A stretch of DNA of 64,000 nucleotides, from the IMG/VR virus record IMGVR_UViG_3300034279_001754, positions 1 through 64,000 of that record. One strand, written 5' to 3'. The stretch comes from a virus. Its lineage: Duplodnaviria; Caudoviricetes. The translations under genes were made by a program, and so were the position numbers. The notes below the pieces were generated by a model. It was not told the origin of the DNA. It searched no databases and was given only the letters and a program-made list of their open reading frames with translations. Below, piece after piece: positions 55,691 through 57,825 of the stretch (its first letter is position 1; every line of letters begins with the position of its first letter).

Positions 55691-55845
55691 TGCCCCAACC
55701 AGGGAATCGAACCTGGAGGCAACAGAATCTATTTTCAATAAGAAGGTGGGTTTTCAAGTCACACCTTATCAACGTAGGTTCAATACGTCTATCAGCATTT
55801 ACTTGTAGATTTGAACCCTAATGCCTGTTCCAACTACTTTGGGAC
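55691..55845 (-). ncRNA. 155-nt tRNA-like RNA with large structured insert
   Basis: GTCCCAA/TTGGGGC acceptor stem, CCAGG-TTCGATTC-CCTGG T-arm, internal helices. Confidence 0.65.
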
Positions 55846-55880
55846 TTTTTGTGTTTTGAACATTCCTAACAAAATTAGGC

Positions 55881-55929
55881 TAGATGATTGTTTTTCCAAT
55901 TTTGAAGGAGTTGATCGCTGAATCATCTA
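55881..55929 (-). ncRNA. CAGCRAT hairpin RNA, copy 3
   Basis: TAGATGATT/AATCATCTA stem with two compensatory changes. Confidence 0.65.
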
Positions 55930-55949
55930 CTTTTCTGCAGAGCAGAAAA

Positions 55950-56022
55950 TGGCGGATCGAGGAATCGAACCTCTATTCCTCCAGCTTATGAGGCTGGCGT
56001 TACATCCCTATTATAGGGATCT
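55950..56022 (-). pseudogene. tRNA-Met(CAT) with degenerate or replaced 5' half
   Basis: Intact CCAGC-CTCATAA-GCTGG, T arm and 3' strand; 5' acceptor/D region does not match. Confidence 0.65.
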
Positions 56023-56054
56023 CTTAAGAAAGTAAACTCTTTCCCGAAGGGAAA

Positions 56055-56129
56055 TACCCGCGATGAGACTCGAACTCACACATAACAACCTTCTCAGGGT
56101 TGCCCCTCTTCCAATTGGGGTACGCGGGT
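56055..56129 (-). tRNA. trnL: tRNA-Leu(GAG), short variable loop
   Basis: CAACC-CTGAGAA-GGTTG; A73. Confidence 0.8.
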
Positions 56130-56151
56130 GTAAAATTCCCCTAAAGGAAAG

Positions 56152-56222
56152 TTCCTAAGATAGGATTCGAACCTATATAAACTCCTTCAAAGGGAGGTGT
56201 CCTACCGTTAGACGACTCAGGA
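56152..56222 (-). tRNA. trnQ: tRNA-Gln(TTG)
   Basis: Loop CTTTGAA; U1-A72. Confidence 0.88.
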
Positions 56223-56239
56223 TTATAGAGGGGGGCTTC

Positions 56240-56488
56240 TCAGAGAAAGAAGCGAAGAGGTCTCTCGAAAACTTGACGAATCAAGGGAGAGGGTCCTGTG
56301 CTAATCATCCTGGGGGAAAAGGCCGAGAGGGGCCTCCAAGACAACAGCGAGGTGTGTCCTGACAAAAAGGCTTCGTCAGAGTGAGTTAGTTGAGACATAT
56401 CATCTTGAATAAGAGCAATCCAGCTGGCTTGGTTTTCGTTCTCTACTCGGGAGTTGCGACCGAGATTCCACCAGTTTTTCAGTCTCAT
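56240..56488 (-). CDS. hypothetical protein (intact paralog of 12886..13149)
   Basis: Codon-level similarity to the interrupted copy, with many third-position changes. Confidence 0.75.
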   Translation of the reverse strand: MRLKNWWNLGRNSRVENENQASWIALIQDDMSQLTHSDEAFLSGHTSLLSWRPLSAFSPRMISTGPSPLIRQVFERPLRFFL

Positions 56489-56520
56489 GCGATCGGTGAT
56501 GTTGCTTTCCATGTGTCTAC

Positions 56521-56739
56521 TCAGACTACTTCGTTGGTTTCCTGGAGAGGAAGCTTGTTACTCTCTTTCAGAACGTGAAGCGCGAAAATCTCGGCTTGGG
56601 TAAATTGATCGATGCCTGCCTTCACGAGGAAGGCTTTATTCATCAACTCCTTAACAACTTTCTCGATAAAGGGAGTGTTGTAATAATGGCCGTCGATACA
56701 AACCGCTTCGTATGAGTGCCAGGCGGGAGTGCTTTCCAT
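56521..56739 (-). CDS. hypothetical protein
   Basis: ATG 6 nt after the -10 element of a promoter cassette. Confidence 0.6.
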   Translation of the reverse strand: MESTPAWHSYEAVCIDGHYYNTPFIEKVVKELMNKAFLVKAGIDQFTQAEIFALHVLKESNKLPLQETNEVV

Positions 56740-56914
56740 AAATCTAGGATAGCGTTTCTGCACTGCAGAAACAAGCCGGAGAACCGGCCTTGGCGGTTCG
56801 GGTAACCGTCCTTTGCGTAGCAAAGACCGAACCTTTTGCTGAAGCGAAAGACCGAACTTTCTCGTGAAGGGAAGCCGCTAAACGATTCCACATTGGTCCC
56901 TGATTAACAGGGGA

Positions 56915-57004
56915 CGGAGAATGAGGGATTTGAACCCACGGGTGCCCGATGAGGACACCACCTGCTTTCCAAGCAGGCACCATAAGCCACTCGGTCAATT
57001 CTCC
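56915..57004 (-). tRNA. trnS: tRNA-Ser(GGA)
   Basis: CCTGC-TTGGAAA-GCAGG; long variable arm. Confidence 0.93.
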
Positions 57005-57007
57005 AAT

Positions 57008-57097
57008 TTGAGAGTAGGTGGATTCGAACCACCATTGCCAGATGAAAGAATCGAACTTTCGATGCCGTCGCACCCGTCCTGCCCAGACGCACTCTCA
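57008..57097 (-). ncRNA. 90-nt tRNA-like RNA with two T-loop hairpins and no anticodon loop
   Basis: TGAGAGT/ACTCTCA stem; GAAAG-TTCGATT-CTTTC and GGTGG-TTCGAAT-CCACC. Confidence 0.7.
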
Positions 57098-57098
57098 A

Positions 57099-57187
57099 CA
57101 GAAGAAGGGGGATTCGAACCCCCGGAGCCGCTTTCGCGACTCAACGGTTTAGCAAACCATCGCCTTAAGCCTCTCGGCCACTCTTCT
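57099..57187 (-). tRNA. trnS: tRNA-Ser(GCT)
   Basis: Loop TTGCTAA; long variable arm. Confidence 0.93.
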
Positions 57188-57206
57188 ATGTTTTCCGTAA
57201 GGAAAA

Positions 57207-57279
57207 CGCCCTCTGCAGGATTCAAACCTGCGACTCCCGAGTTCGAAGCCCGGTACTCTGTTTACTGAGTTAAGAAGGC
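57207..57279 (-). tRNA. trnR: tRNA-Arg(TCG)
   Basis: Loop CTTCGAA. Confidence 0.88.
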
Positions 57280-57340
57280 TCTTTTCAGAAGTGAACTTAT
57301 CATAGTTGTGCCCACAATAAGTAAACTTTTGTCTCGTCAA

Positions 57341-57457
57341 ACAACAAGGTTGGACTTGAACCAACGGCTTGCTTTACCCTCCAGCGTTACGGTCCTTTAC
57401 CGGGACTTTTTTCAAAGTCCGAGGAGGTTGCTGCTCTACCAACTGAGCTACTTGTTG
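57341..57457 (-). ncRNA. 117-nt tRNA-like RNA with branched anticodon-arm replacement
   Basis: Perfect acceptor stem, TAGCTCAGTTGGTAGAGC D arm and T arm; insert with two hairpins. Confidence 0.75.
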
Positions 57458-57486
57458 CTTTGGTTTGTTTCTGAAAGGGTCAGACA

Positions 57487-57561
57487 TGGGCTACCCCGGA
57501 TTCGAACCGGGAAGCATTTCATTCTAAGTGAAATAGGTATGCCAGTTCCCGTCAGCAGCCC
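57487..57561 (-). tRNA. trnL: tRNA-Leu(TAG), short variable loop
   Basis: TTTCA-CTTAGAA-TGAAA; A73. Confidence 0.85.
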
Positions 57562-57667
57562 GAAACAACCCACCTATTGTCAGTAGATTGCCTATAATAT
57601 AGCAACTTTTGGTTGCCTTTAACCGACATATGTAAAATCGGCTGGAGCTTAATTAGTATGGCCCCAA

Positions 57668-57825
57668 TTGAAGTGGAGAGGCTTGAACTCTCAATGTTAA
57701 GATTGCGTCTGGCTGCTACTTAACAGGTGGTTTCAACCATGAGCCAGGAAGTTGCTATTAGCATTTACAACCCCATCCGTATCGGCTGATTCCACACCCC
57801 CGTATACCAGTTCCGGCACACTCCG
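57668..57825 (-). ncRNA. 158-nt tRNA-like RNA with large structured insert
   Basis: GGAGTG/CACTTC stem, Leu-type D arm, GAGAG-TTCAAGC-CTCTC T arm. Confidence 0.65.

What the first reader, a model, noticed from the sequence alone, without database searches (positions are those of the whole stretch)
55691..57825. Two ~155-nt tRNA-like RNAs share GTAAATGCTRATAG; possible mini-tmRNA-like class
55691-55845 and 57668-57825 are dissimilar overall, yet both inserts carry GTAAATGCT(G/A)ATAG and a TTGAAA loop. TAAAT-GCT-(A/G)AT resembles the tmRNA resume context. In 57668 it reads ANSNFLAHG* (57762-57733), and the acceptor has G3.U70 and A73. In 55691 there is no D stem (as in tmRNA) and GGTTCAA can pair with loop TTGAACC as a pseudoknot, but G3.U70 and an in-frame stop are missing. 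Alternatively both carry ATG-started mini-ORFs (MLIATSWLMVETTC*, MLIDVLNLR*) or a protein-binding motif.
Basis: partly seen in the sequence, partly recalled or inferred. Interest (0 to 1): 0.8.

Follow-up and report, generated by a model that had tools for sequence, protein, structure and literature searches.

The report
Phage tRNA-like RNAs, not mini-tmRNAs
Two 155-158-nt genes in a cyanophage tRNA cluster encode tRNA-shaped RNAs that cannot decode; one belongs to a conserved, pseudoknotted phage RNA family that matches no Rfam model and whose function is unknown.

Summary
Both elements lie on the minus strand of a tRNA array in a 134-kb IMG/VR phage record, and they share the exact 14-mer.

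The mini-tmRNA reading does not hold. In 24 homologues of the 57668-57825 RNA the loop length varies from 7 to 14 nt. No reading frame or stop codon is conserved. G3.U70 occurs in 3 of 24, and the D stem is present and covaries. The phage also carries a genuine two-piece tmRNA at 28726-28988.

The 57668-57825 RNA belongs to a family of 152-160-nt RNAs. Members occur in S-CRM01, Pseudomonas phage GP100 and viral or metagenomic contigs. The scaffold resembles a class II tRNA-Leu: acceptor, U8, a 3-bp D stem and a T arm. A conserved domain replaces the anticodon loop, and it forms a covarying pseudoknot with the loop of the variable-arm-like hairpin. No Rfam family matches.

The 55691-55845 RNA is a separate, lineage-restricted tRNA-like RNA with no D stem. 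It displays the same apical-loop motif.

Contigs from RNA libraries hold both RNAs unspliced.

The closest known analogue is T4 rnaC, a stable RNA in the T4 tRNA cluster whose function is unknown. The function here is also unknown. My best guess is a non-decoding tRNA mimic that acts on a conserved host component.

The parts
57668..57825 (-). c2: 158-nt tRNA-Leu-like pseudoknotted RNA, a member of the 24-locus phage family
   Evidence: Model R1 scores it 163.2 bits. Structure supported.
57819..57825 (-). c2 acceptor 5' strand. It pairs with 57669-57675. The discriminator A is at 57668.
   Evidence: The helix is 92.8% paired over 24 sequences, and all 7 pairs covary.
57800..57816 (-). c2 D arm: 3-bp stem and 11-nt loop with GG, preceded by U8 G9
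   Evidence: 100% paired, and 3 of 3 pairs show compensatory change.
57772..57787 (-). c2 conserved core AGCCGAUACGGAUGGG: helix b 5' strand, 5-nt junction, and the start of hairpin c
   Evidence: Its invariance is partly built in by the search patterns.
57747..57778 (-). c2 hairpin c, whose apical loop AAAUGCUAAUA carries the shared 14-mer (57755-57768)
57742..57746 (-). c2 pseudoknot 5' strand (UGGCU)
   Evidence: It pairs with 57710-57714. 98.3% paired, and 3 of 5 pairs covary. This pairing is not part of model R1.
57695..57725 (-). c2 variable-arm-like hairpin d. Its loop carries the pseudoknot 3' strand (57710-57714, AGCCA).
57676..57692 (-). c2 T arm (GAGAG UUCAAGC CUCUC)
   Evidence: 99.2% paired.
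55691..55845 (-). c1: 155-nt tRNA-like RNA with a 7-bp acceptor and T arm, a 13-nt D region without a stem, and a stem enclosing two hairpins
   Evidence: A 90%-identical homologue is present in G001.
55777..55817 (-). c1 hairpin A (GGUUCAA/UUGAACC stem) carrying the shared 14-mer at 55789-55802
55735..55772 (-). c1 hairpin B, whose loop contains CUUGAAAACC
   Evidence: The loop differs in G001.
55699..55716 (-). c1 T arm (CCAGG, 8-nt loop, CCUGG). Acceptor 3' strand at 55692-55698. Discriminator A at 55691.
   Evidence: Contigs of a relative carry a deletion at 55706 and a change at 55705. By my reading these would give a 7-nt loop.
58084..58112 (-). Promoter-like site (TTTACT, 17 nt, TATAAT) upstream of tRNA-Lys(ctt) and c2. 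Possibly the start of their common transcript.
   Evidence: This is a consensus match only, and the number of such sites is not above shuffles.
28726..28988 (-). Context: a genuine two-piece (permuted) tmRNA of the same phage. The tag frame at 28766-28810 reads ANKIVKFERTAVAV*.
   Evidence: Rfam RF01851 at 76.4 bits and RF04321 at 56.5 bits. Translation. The choice of resume codon is mine.

Best explanation
Both genes encode stable, non-decoding tRNA-like RNAs that are made together with the phage's tRNA array.

c2 (57668-57825) is a member of a phage RNA family that matches no Rfam model. It is built on a class II, tRNA-Leu-like scaffold with an acceptor helix, U8, a 3-bp D stem with an 11-nt loop, and a T arm. 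The D and T loops should therefore form the tRNA elbow. The anticodon loop is replaced by a roughly 65-nt domain made of helices a, b and c and a near-invariant core. That domain is locked to the loop of the variable-arm-like hairpin by a 5-6-bp pseudoknot, which makes a rigid closed frame. A hairpin projects from this frame and displays the loop RAAU...AAUA.

c1 (55691-55845) is a second, lineage-restricted tRNA-like RNA with no D stem. It displays nearly the same loop.

Inferred mechanism. The acceptor/T-arm minihelix and the elbow let the host's tRNA-maturation and stabilising machinery handle these RNAs. The pseudoknot domain and the apical loop are the working surfaces, and they bind a partner in trans. 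No phage protein is shared by the carriers, and their genomes range from 44 to 63% GC with hosts from cyanobacteria to Pseudomonas. The partner is therefore most likely a conserved host component that normally binds tRNA. The RNA would act as a decoy, sponge or adaptor.

Shown: the fold, its conservation, the association with tRNA arrays, and presence of the unspliced sequence in RNA libraries. Inferred: processing, stability, action in trans, and the nature of the partner.
For: Family. 24 distinct loci score 98-167 bits with model R1, and all are 152-160 nt long. They include S-CRM01 and Pseudomonas phage GP100, where nothing is annotated at the site.

Structure. 91.2% of cells are paired against 65.3% in shuffles, and 0 of 500 shuffles reach the observed value. 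35 of 46 pairs show changes on both sides. Sliding the partner columns lowers pairing to 35-44%.

Pseudoknot. It is outside the covariance model, yet 98.3% of cells are paired. The pair types are GC12/UA11/AU1, CG11/AU7/GC4/UA2 and GC16/AU8.

Scaffold. The best non-family hits of R1 include class II tRNAs annotated as tRNA-Leu: window tRNA-Leu genes at 38.8 and 37.8 bits, and T4 tRNA-Leu at 41 bits. Three other top hits (L031, L074, L081) were not identified.

Genomic context. 15 of 24 loci have a tRNA within 2 kb. All 79 of those tRNAs are on the same strand as the RNA.

RNA evidence. Contigs from four metatranscriptome runs carry c2 collinear with the DNA (57689-57912, 57667-57822, 57705-58098, 57667-57856). 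Two runs carry a roughly 93%-identical relative of c1. No joint lies inside either RNA.

No phage partner. No protein is shared among GP100, G004, S-CRM01 and G000, apart from a spurious ORF that overlaps the RNA gene. Neighbouring ORFs are not conserved either.

Loop. The loop motif recurs across the family and in c1.

Precedent. T4 rnaC and rnaD are stable RNAs in the T4 tRNA cluster, and a 2022 paper calls their functions still unknown (PMC9697503, passages read).
Against: There is no direct evidence for processing, stability, a partner or any phenotype.

RNA-library contigs can contain DNA, and they cannot show the ends of molecules.

The terminal helix runs 5-15 further consecutive pairs beyond the 7-bp acceptor in 7 of 24 loci, and L224 has 3 plus 11. 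This does not fit simple tRNA-like end maturation in those lineages.

9 of 24 loci have no tRNA within 2 kb (several of these are short contigs), so the RNA does not depend on an array.

The near-invariant core could instead be a catalytic or ligand-binding site.

c1 has only close relatives, so its fold rests on energy prediction. 0 of 42 predicted pairs show compensatory change.

All family members were found with patterns that fix part of the core. Both the invariance of the core and the apparent restriction to viral sequence are therefore biased by the way members were found.
Confidence: 0.6

Rival explanations
1. Mini-tmRNA. The RNA is charged with alanine, enters stalled ribosomes, and its insert is translated as a short tag.
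For: The window copy has G3.U70 and A73 if C1.A72 is counted as the first pair. It also has the frame ANSNFLAHG*. c1 has no D stem, as in tmRNA.
Against: G3.U70 occurs in 3 of 24. The discriminator is A in 9 of 24. The first codon is Ala in 5 of 24, a stop follows ..AHG/..AQG in 5 of 24, 6 of 24 have no stop, and loop length of 7-14 nt shifts the frame. Substitutions preserve base pairs rather than codons. The D stem covaries. No tmRNA model matches. The phage already has a real tmRNA.
Confidence: 0.03
2. Intron-containing tRNA-Leu. The insert is removed to give a decoding tRNA.
For: The scaffold is tRNA-Leu-like. Phage tRNA genes with inserts do exist nearby: ARAGORN in intron mode calls 57340-57458 a tRNA-Arg(cct) with a 29-nt intron.
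Against: ARAGORN in intron mode (0-150 nt) finds no tRNA in c1 or c2. No 7-nt anticodon loop can be rebuilt next to helix a. The insert pairs with the variable-arm loop and the two covary, so the unspliced RNA is the form under selection. RNA-library contigs from 4 runs are collinear and show no joint inside either RNA. That last point is weak, because contigs drop rare forms.
Confidence: 0.05
3. Ribozyme or ligand-sensing RNA. The near-invariant core and pseudoknot form a catalytic or small-molecule-binding pocket, and the tRNA scaffold serves only for folding and stability.
For: The core is conserved at the sequence level across very different phages, more than helices would require. The topology is a compact junction with a pseudoknot. 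No protein partner is shared.
Against: No Rfam ribozyme or riboswitch model matches at E<=10. The helix order differs from the HDV-like nested double pseudoknot (my comparison, from recall). No conserved downstream gene exists for it to regulate. The invariance of the core is inflated by the way members were found.
Confidence: 0.13
4. Cis-acting element of the tRNA operon: a processing guide, spacer or protective structure for the polycistronic transcript, with no function in trans.
For: It lies on the same strand as tRNAs in 15 of 24 loci. One RNA contig runs from c2 into its upstream leader, up to 57912.
Against: 9 of 24 loci have no tRNA within 2 kb. In GP100 the nearest is one tRNA call about 2 kb away, annotated as a pseudo-tRNA. 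The elaborate conserved core and pseudoknot exceed what a spacer needs.
Confidence: 0.1
5. RNA-only assembly. Like ROOL and GOLLD, the RNAs oligomerise, with the pseudoknot or the apical loop pairing between molecules.
For: ROOL and GOLLD are phage RNAs often found near tRNA islands, and they form cages (PMC12286853, passages read). A GOLLD lies 2.2 kb from the family member in L012. Covariation cannot tell intramolecular from intermolecular pairing.
Against: At 155 nt it is far smaller than those RNAs. No test was done.
Confidence: 0.05
6. Small-protein genes (MLIATSWLMVETTC*, MLIDVLNLR*).
For: Both window copies have an ATG in the loop and an open frame that starts MLI (reader).
Against: An ATG is present in the loop in 8 of 24. 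The resulting frames run from 6 aa up to the end of the RNA without a stop. The pattern of substitution is that of a structured RNA.
Confidence: 0.02

Closest known systems
Bacteriophage T4 rnaC (species 1 RNA, 139 nt) and rnaD, the stable RNAs of the T4 tRNA cluster
   Same: Both are encoded in the tRNA cluster of a T4-like phage, on the same strand as the tRNAs. rnaC folds into an acceptor-like helix, a long arm, a second hairpin and a T arm, with z = -4.57. The apical UUGACG of its long arm is complementary to the CGUCAA loop of the second hairpin, and both 6-mers are invariant in 4 of 4 aligned homologues. This resembles c2's pseudoknot between the insert and the variable-arm loop. The function of rnaC is unknown (PMC9697503, passages read).
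   Different: There is no detectable homology: R1 does not hit rnaC at E<=10. rnaC has no D stem and lacks the c2 core. Its loop-loop pairing is conserved but not shown by covariation. rnaC is found in 748 records, mostly phages of enterobacteria. The c2 family is found in 2 isolated phages and in environmental contigs.
tmRNA, including the two-piece cyanobacterial type (RF01851, RF04321)
   Same: Both are tRNA-like RNAs with an acceptor and T arm plus a large inserted domain containing a pseudoknot. c1 has no D stem.
   Different: The family has no conserved G3.U70, tag frame or stop. c2 has a covarying D stem. The order of helices differs. No tmRNA model matches. A true tmRNA is present elsewhere in the same window.
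Class II tRNA-Leu (RF00005)
   Same: c2 has a 7-bp acceptor, U8, a 3-bp D stem with an 11-nt loop containing GG, a long extra arm before the T arm, and a canonical T loop. tRNA-Leu genes are among the best non-family hits of R1.
   Different: c2 has no anticodon loop. The extra arm is longer (7 + 2 bp), and its loop is used for a pseudoknot. The terminal helix is extended in a third of members. The RF00005 model does not match.
Bacterial Y RNA-like tRNA mimics (YrlA). Recalled from the literature; not read here.
   Same: They are non-decoding RNAs that mimic the tRNA elbow with D and T arms.
   Different: As I recall, in YrlA the 5' and 3' ends form the protein-binding stem at the anticodon side and the acceptor is closed. 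Here the ends form the acceptor side. No Y RNA or YrlA model of Rfam matched.
GOLLD and ROOL, large phage RNAs near tRNA islands
   Same: They are phage-encoded, associated with tRNA islands, highly structured with pseudoknots, of unknown function, and have no known protein partner (PMC12286853, passages read).
   Different: They are 4-6 times larger and unrelated in sequence and fold. GOLLD co-occurs with the family as a separate gene in L012.

Membership tests
tmRNA | Alanine identity pair G3.U70 in the acceptor | tested here: not met
   G.U at pair 3:70 in 3 of 24 family members. c1 has C3-G70.
tmRNA | Conserved tag reading frame with a resume codon and an in-frame stop | tested here: not met
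   Ala as first codon in 5 of 24. Stop after ..AHG/..AQG in 5 of 24. No stop in 6 of 24. Loop length 7-14 nt.
tmRNA | D region without a stem | tested here: not met
   The c2 D stem is 100% paired and 3 of 3 pairs covary. The feature is met only by c1.
tmRNA | Match to tmRNA covariance models | tested here: not met
   No tmRNA hit on c1 or c2 at E<=10. RF01851 and RF04321 do hit 28726-28988.
tmRNA | SmpB binding and alanylation | not testable with these tools
   Needs biochemistry.
Canonical tRNA (RF00005) | Cloverleaf with a 5-bp anticodon stem and a 7-nt loop | tested here: not met
   No RF00005 hit at E<=10. No ARAGORN call, with or without introns.
Intron-containing tRNA | Removing the insert restores an anticodon stem-loop, and a spliced RNA exists | tested here: not met
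   ARAGORN -i0,150 gives no call. RNA-library contigs of 4 runs are collinear with no joint inside. That is weak evidence, since contigs drop rare forms.
T4 rnaC-like stable RNA | Encoded in a phage tRNA cluster on the tRNA strand | tested here: met
T4 rnaC-like stable RNA | Sequence or profile homology to rnaC | tested here: not met
   R1 does not hit L089:2909-3047 at E<=10. The reverse test, an rnaC model against the window, was not done.
T4 rnaC-like stable RNA | Accumulates as a discrete, stable, processed RNA | tested here: inconclusive
   Contigs in RNA libraries cover c1 and c2, but they cannot show ends or exclude DNA.
New c2 family (model R1) | tRNA-Leu-like scaffold, AGCCRAYACGGAUGGG core, and a pseudoknot between the strand after hairpin c and the loop of hairpin d | tested here: met
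   Window c2 scores 163.2 bits. All helices are present.
New c2 family (model R1) | The same features, tested for c1 (55691-55845) | tested here: not met
   R1 gives no hit on c1 at E<=10. c1 has no core and a different helix topology.
Y RNA / YrlA | Match to Rfam Y RNA or YrlA models | tested here: not met
   No such hit at E<=10. The Ro/Rsr-binding stem motif itself was not tested.

The most novel reading that the evidence does not exclude
The c2 family is a new class of trans-acting tRNA-Leu mimic. Its rigid pseudoknotted frame would dock into a universally conserved host machine that reads tRNA shape, such as the ribosome, LeuRS, RNase P or a tRNA-directed defence nuclease, in order to reprogramme or protect translation during infection. 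c1 and T4 rnaC would be independent solutions to the same task. If so, this family would give a testable handle on the long-unexplained T4 species 1 RNA.
Probability: 0.25. Interest if true: 0.85.

Novelty: new variant of a known kind. Interest (0 to 1): 0.63.

Why it matters
Phage tRNA islands are known to carry RNAs whose purpose is unknown, including T4 rnaC and rnaD, GOLLD and ROOL. This work adds a compact family of about 155 nt with a fold that is well resolved by covariation. It is present in two cultivable phage-host systems, S-CRM01 with Synechococcus LC16 and GP100 with Pseudomonas. Deletion, pull-down and structural work are therefore feasible.

The scaffold is plainly tRNA-Leu-like while the anticodon is gone. 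This is a clean natural example of a tRNA being turned into something else. It may show which host factor phages address through tRNA shape.

It also shows that standard annotation (ARAGORN, Rfam) leaves such genes as blank gaps inside tRNA arrays.

Tried and rejected
Homologues of c1.
- blastn against 50,697 phage records found no match.
- Two exact 22-nt patterns in viral contigs found only G001.
- Model R2 gave no hit at E<=1 in G002, S-CRM01, B3, G006 and G007.
- c1 therefore stays a lineage-restricted RNA without covariation support.

Scan for the loop motif next to a T loop. After filtering the stored loci numbered L090 and above for a T stem and acceptor, 1 passed (L182), and it is an ordinary tRNA with a chance motif upstream. 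Not informative.

Bacterial genomes. The core pattern gave 15 GTDB loci, and none is a true member by R1. This does not show absence, because the pattern is narrow.

Protein partner. There is no conserved neighbouring ORF. No protein is shared by GP100, G004, S-CRM01 and G000. PhoH is shared only by GP100 and S-CRM01.

Candidate pairings in c1.
- A loop-loop pairing CAAGU/ACUUG is not kept in G001.
- AAUCUA/UAGAUU is invariant, so it is untestable.

A target complementary to the 14-mer. There is none in the window on either strand. The hit at 28380 is the same sense and lies inside a CDS.

The 16-nt core also occurs in a roughly 450-nt non-coding stretch in 7 viral loci (L009, L010, L016, L028, L011, L022, L025). 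That amounts to two independent sequences, so chance is not excluded, and I did not pursue it.

RNA runs. 55855-56855 has almost no cover in the four RNA runs. Depths are not compared between genes.

Literature. Searches (the last using the core and loop sequences as text) found no description of this family. The S-CRM01 genome paper is not held. The supplements of PMC10690425, which lists 10,006 candidate viral RNAs, are closed, so the family may be listed there.

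Full report
**Setting**

The window is the first 64 kb of a 134-kb IMG/VR virus record that CheckV rates 48% complete. Its nearest named relatives are T4-like cyanomyoviruses: Synechococcus phages B3 and B23, and S-CRM01. ARAGORN finds 24 tRNA genes, all on the minus strand and most between 50 and 58.5 kb. Rfam adds a cyanobacterial-type two-piece tmRNA at 28726-28988 and a glutamine riboswitch at 11696-11771.

**Checking the observation**

Both elements exist on the minus strand.

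- c2 (57668-57825) ends in a T arm (GAGAG UUCAAGC CUCUC), an acceptor strand CACUUCA, and then A. Its 5' end, CGGAGUG, pairs with that strand in 6 of 7 positions.
- c1 (55691-55845) has a perfect 7-bp acceptor (with U2.G71), a T arm with an 8-nt loop, and a 13-nt D region with no stem.
- The 14-mer GTAAATGCTRATAG occurs exactly at 55789-55802 and 57755-57768 and nowhere else in the window. Allowing 2 mismatches adds one hit, which lies inside a 117-aa ORF. The expectation was 0.65 matches.
- Neither element is found by ARAGORN, by ARAGORN in intron mode, or by any of 4227 Rfam models at E<=10.

The "TTGAAA loop" of c2 is one strand of an internal loop, and its sequence is not conserved.

**c2 belongs to a family**

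blastn found c2-like sequence in S-CRM01, in an unannotated gap between tRNA-Val and tRNA-Ala. It also found one in Pseudomonas phage GP100 (Zobellviridae), in an unannotated gap among small early-region ORFs.

I then scanned with patterns built from the shared core.
- One search returned 26 viral loci.
- One search returned 54 viral loci.
- One search returned 18 viral loci, with 1 new true member.
- One search returned 70 metagenome loci, of which 13 are true by nhmmer. One of these (L260) is the same contig as L086 and was dropped.

Most pattern hits were chance matches in coding sequence. True members were separated from these with an HMM and a covariance model.

The final set is 24 distinct loci. 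All score 98-167 bits with model R1 and are 152-160 nt long. I dropped L020, L023, L233 and L260 because they duplicate records already in the set.

Among 50,697 GenBank phage records, four blastn queries found only S-CRM01 and GP100. A scan of one genome per prokaryote species gave 15 pattern hits, none of them real.

Every search pattern fixed part of the core. The invariance of the core, and the apparent restriction to viral sequence, are therefore partly built in.

**Structure of the family**

From 5' to 3':
- acceptor strand
- U8 and R9
- a 3-bp D stem with an 11-12-nt loop containing GG
- one unpaired base
- helix a (4 bp, a bulge, then 1-2 bp)
- an A-rich internal loop
- helix b (GCC/GGY)
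- a 5-nt junction (RAYAC)
- hairpin c (GGA/UCC, then UGGG, then a 5-bp stem and an apical loop)
- a 5-6-nt strand that forms a pseudoknot with the loop of a later hairpin
- CAU
- the return strands of helices b and a
- hairpin d (7 + 2 bp), whose 8-nt loop supplies the other pseudoknot strand
- T arm
- acceptor strand

On the 24-sequence alignment, 91.2% of cells form standard pairs against 65.3% after shuffling. None of 500 shuffles reaches the observed pairing or covariation score. Sliding the partner columns by 1-3 lowers pairing to 35-44%. The first 11 sequences, aligned independently with MAFFT, gave the same picture.

The nested helices are counted on an alignment fitted to the model, which favours them. 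The pseudoknot is not in the model and so is an independent test. It is 98.3% paired, and three of its five pairs switch among GC, UA, AU and CG. The D stem is 100% paired, and all three of its pairs covary.

**What the scaffold resembles**

Outside the family, tRNA-Leu genes rank among the best hits of R1. T4 tRNA-Leu scores 41 bits, the window's two long tRNA-Leu genes score 38.8 and 37.8, and a tRNA-Ser scores 32.5 (gene identities). Three other high hits (L031 at 47.4 bits, L074 at 43.3 and L081 at 39.1) were not identified.

So c2 is a tRNA-Leu-like body. Helix a sits where the anticodon stem would be, and hairpin d sits where the long variable arm would be. There is no anticodon loop. 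In its place a roughly 65-nt domain is tied to the variable-arm loop by the pseudoknot. I infer that this makes a closed, rigid frame from which hairpin c projects.

**Test of the tmRNA reading**

I read every homologue from the column of the window's GCU.
- Ala is the first codon in 5 of 24.
- A stop follows ..AHG or ..AQG in 5 of 24.
- 6 of 24 have no stop before the end of the RNA.
- The apical loop is 7-14 nt long, so the frame relative to the conserved downstream sequence is not kept.

The recurrent "LAHG" comes from the conserved structural sequence around the pseudoknot strand.

G.U at pair 3:70 occurs in 3 of 24. The discriminator is A in 9, U in 11, C in 3 and G in 1. The phage also carries a real tmRNA, whose tag frame reads ANKIVKFERTAVAV*. 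The mini-tmRNA idea is therefore not supported. The ATG-started mini-ORF exists in 8 of 24.

**Test of the intron reading**

ARAGORN allowing introns of 0-150 nt calls a neighbouring odd gene (57340-57458) a tRNA-Arg(cct) with a 29-nt intron. It calls nothing at c1 or c2.

The covariation between the insert and the variable-arm loop shows that the unspliced RNA is the form under selection.

Logan contigs from four metatranscriptome runs carry c2 collinear with the DNA: 57689-57912, 57667-57822, 57705-58098 and 57667-57856, with 1-23 differing letters. Two runs carry a roughly 93%-identical relative of c1 together with its neighbouring tRNAs. No joint lies inside either RNA. These contigs cannot show ends, cannot exclude DNA in the library, and drop rare forms. 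They show presence of the unspliced form, not absence of a spliced one.

**The ends of the RNA**

The 7-bp acceptor is fully paired in 15 of 24, has 6 pairs in 6, 5 pairs in 2 and 4 pairs in 1 (S-CRM01). In 7 of 24 the helix continues for 5-15 further consecutive pairs between leader and trailer. L224 adds 3 plus 11.

The window's lineage (window, L013, L032) has no such extension and has A73. Maturation like that of a tRNA is therefore plausible for the cyanophage copies and doubtful for the copies with long stems. This is unresolved.

**The shared loop**

The exact 14-mer is present in 3 of 24 (window, L013, L061) and with one change in L267. AAUA lies at or near the 3' end of the apical loop in 20 of 24, and L252 has GAUA, as c1 does. 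Three members lack it: S-CRM01, L024, and L309, which has a GAGA-containing loop.

The loop is therefore a frequent but dispensable feature of the family. The pseudoknot core is the constant part. c1 carries almost the same loop on an unrelated body, and it keeps the G/A difference from c2 in the sister phage G001. This points to a common partner for the loop, or to exchange of a module. I cannot tell which.

**c1**

c1 has only close relatives. G001 carries a copy that is 90% identical, and the RNA-library contigs carry one that is about 93% identical. Nothing was found by blastn in phages, by two exact patterns, or by model R2 in five related phage genomes. R1 does not hit c1.

Its predicted fold is acceptor, stemless D region, a stem enclosing two hairpins, then T arm. 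That fold has a z-score of -1.71, and none of its 42 predicted pairs shows compensatory change. The existence of c1 and its tRNA-like ends are secure. Its internal fold is not.

**Context and partners**

15 of 24 family loci have at least one tRNA within 2 kb, and all 79 such tRNAs are on the same strand as the RNA. 9 loci have none, and several of those are short contigs. In GP100 the RNA stands alone among early genes.

No neighbouring ORF is conserved. No protein is shared among GP100, the complete 63.6-kb phage G004, S-CRM01 and G000 at tblastn E<=1e-3, apart from a spurious ORF over the RNA gene itself. Family members range from 44 to 63% GC. I infer that the partner, if there is one, is a conserved host component.

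**Closest known**

T4 rnaC and rnaD are annotated as small stable RNAs at the end of the T4 tRNA cluster. A 2022 study still calls them RNAs of unknown function (PMC9697503, passages read).

rnaC folds as acceptor, long arm, second hairpin and T arm, with z = -4.57. The apical UUGACG of its long arm is complementary to the CGUCAA loop of its second hairpin. Both are invariant in 4 of 4 aligned homologues, including one whose long arm is otherwise rewritten. This is the same design idea as in c2, with the extra arm's loop tied to the extended anticodon-side arm. There is no detectable homology, however, and the rnaC pairing is not proven by covariation.

ROOL and GOLLD show that phage tRNA islands host other structured RNAs of unknown function (PMC12286853, passages read). 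A GOLLD lies next to the family member in L012.

My comparisons with YrlA, with HDV-like ribozymes beside phage tRNAs, and with LeuRS identity rules come from recall and were not checked in any call.

**Verdict**

The tmRNA-like mechanism is not supported. What is there is a phage family of tRNA-Leu-derived, pseudoknotted, non-decoding RNAs (c2) that matches no Rfam model, plus a lineage-specific second tRNA-like RNA (c1) that shares its apical loop. The function is unknown. I put 0.6 on "stable trans-acting tRNA mimic", and within that a lower, unquantified share on the specific guess of a conserved host tRNA-binding factor as the partner.

I found no description of the family in print. The S-CRM01 genome paper and the supplements of a 10,006-candidate viral RNA catalogue (PMC10690425) could not be seen.

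Noticed in passing
window 28726-28988 (-): A phage-encoded two-piece (permuted) cyanobacterial-type tmRNA (RF01851 at 76.4 bits, RF04321 at 56.5 bits). ARAGORN did not report it. The frame at 28766-28810 reads ANKIVKFERTAVAV*.
   Followed up: partly
window 57340-57458 (-): A tRNA-like gene with an insert of about 46 nt. RF00005 scores it 44.1 bits. ARAGORN in intron mode calls it tRNA-Arg(cct) with a 29-nt intron. A homologous gene with the same insert architecture is visible in G002 (L032, about 205-320, minus strand).
   Followed up: partly
window 57013-57095 (-): An unannotated tRNA-like element of about 83-90 nt. It has a 7-bp acceptor and two T-arm-like hairpins (GAAAG UUCGAUU CUUUC and GGUGG UUCGAAU CCACC). 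Neither ARAGORN nor Rfam calls it.
   Followed up: no
window 55941-56020 (-) and 53923-53993 (-): Two more marginal tRNA-like elements. The first scores 19.4 bits with RF00005 and has a CAU anticodon-like loop. The second scores 36.6 bits with RF00005 but is missed by ARAGORN.
   Followed up: no
window 55900-57200, between tRNA genes: Short hairpins flanked by A/U runs recur in the spacers between tRNAs, for example UUUCCC-UUCG-GGAAA at 56054-56040. They may be processing or stabilising signals.
   Followed up: no
L032 about 735-900 (-) (virus record G002): A tRNA-like gene with a normal acceptor, D arm and T arm but an insertion of about 85 nt between the anticodon arm and the T arm.
   Followed up: no
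L010 1000-1500, and L009, L016, L028, L011, L022, L025: A stretch of about 450 nt with no long ORF, in seven viral loci (two sequence types). It contains the same 16-mer, AGCCGATACGGATGGG, in a similar local setting: GCC, a 5-nt bulge, a GGAUG hairpin, then GGC. No Rfam family matches at gathering score in the three loci scanned (L010, L011, L016). It could be chance or a shared RNA module.
   Followed up: partly
L012 2411-2870 (-): A GOLLD RNA (225 bits) with a tRNA embedded at 2736-2807. It sits in a tRNA array 2.2 kb from a c2-family member.
   Followed up: no
window 11696-11771 (-): A glutamine riboswitch aptamer (RF01739, 46.3 bits), a known feature of cyanophages.
   Followed up: no
window 56240-56823 (-): Two small ORFs (90 and about 70-100 aa) lie inside the tRNA array between tRNA-Gln and tRNA-Ser. 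They were not searched against any library.
   Followed up: no
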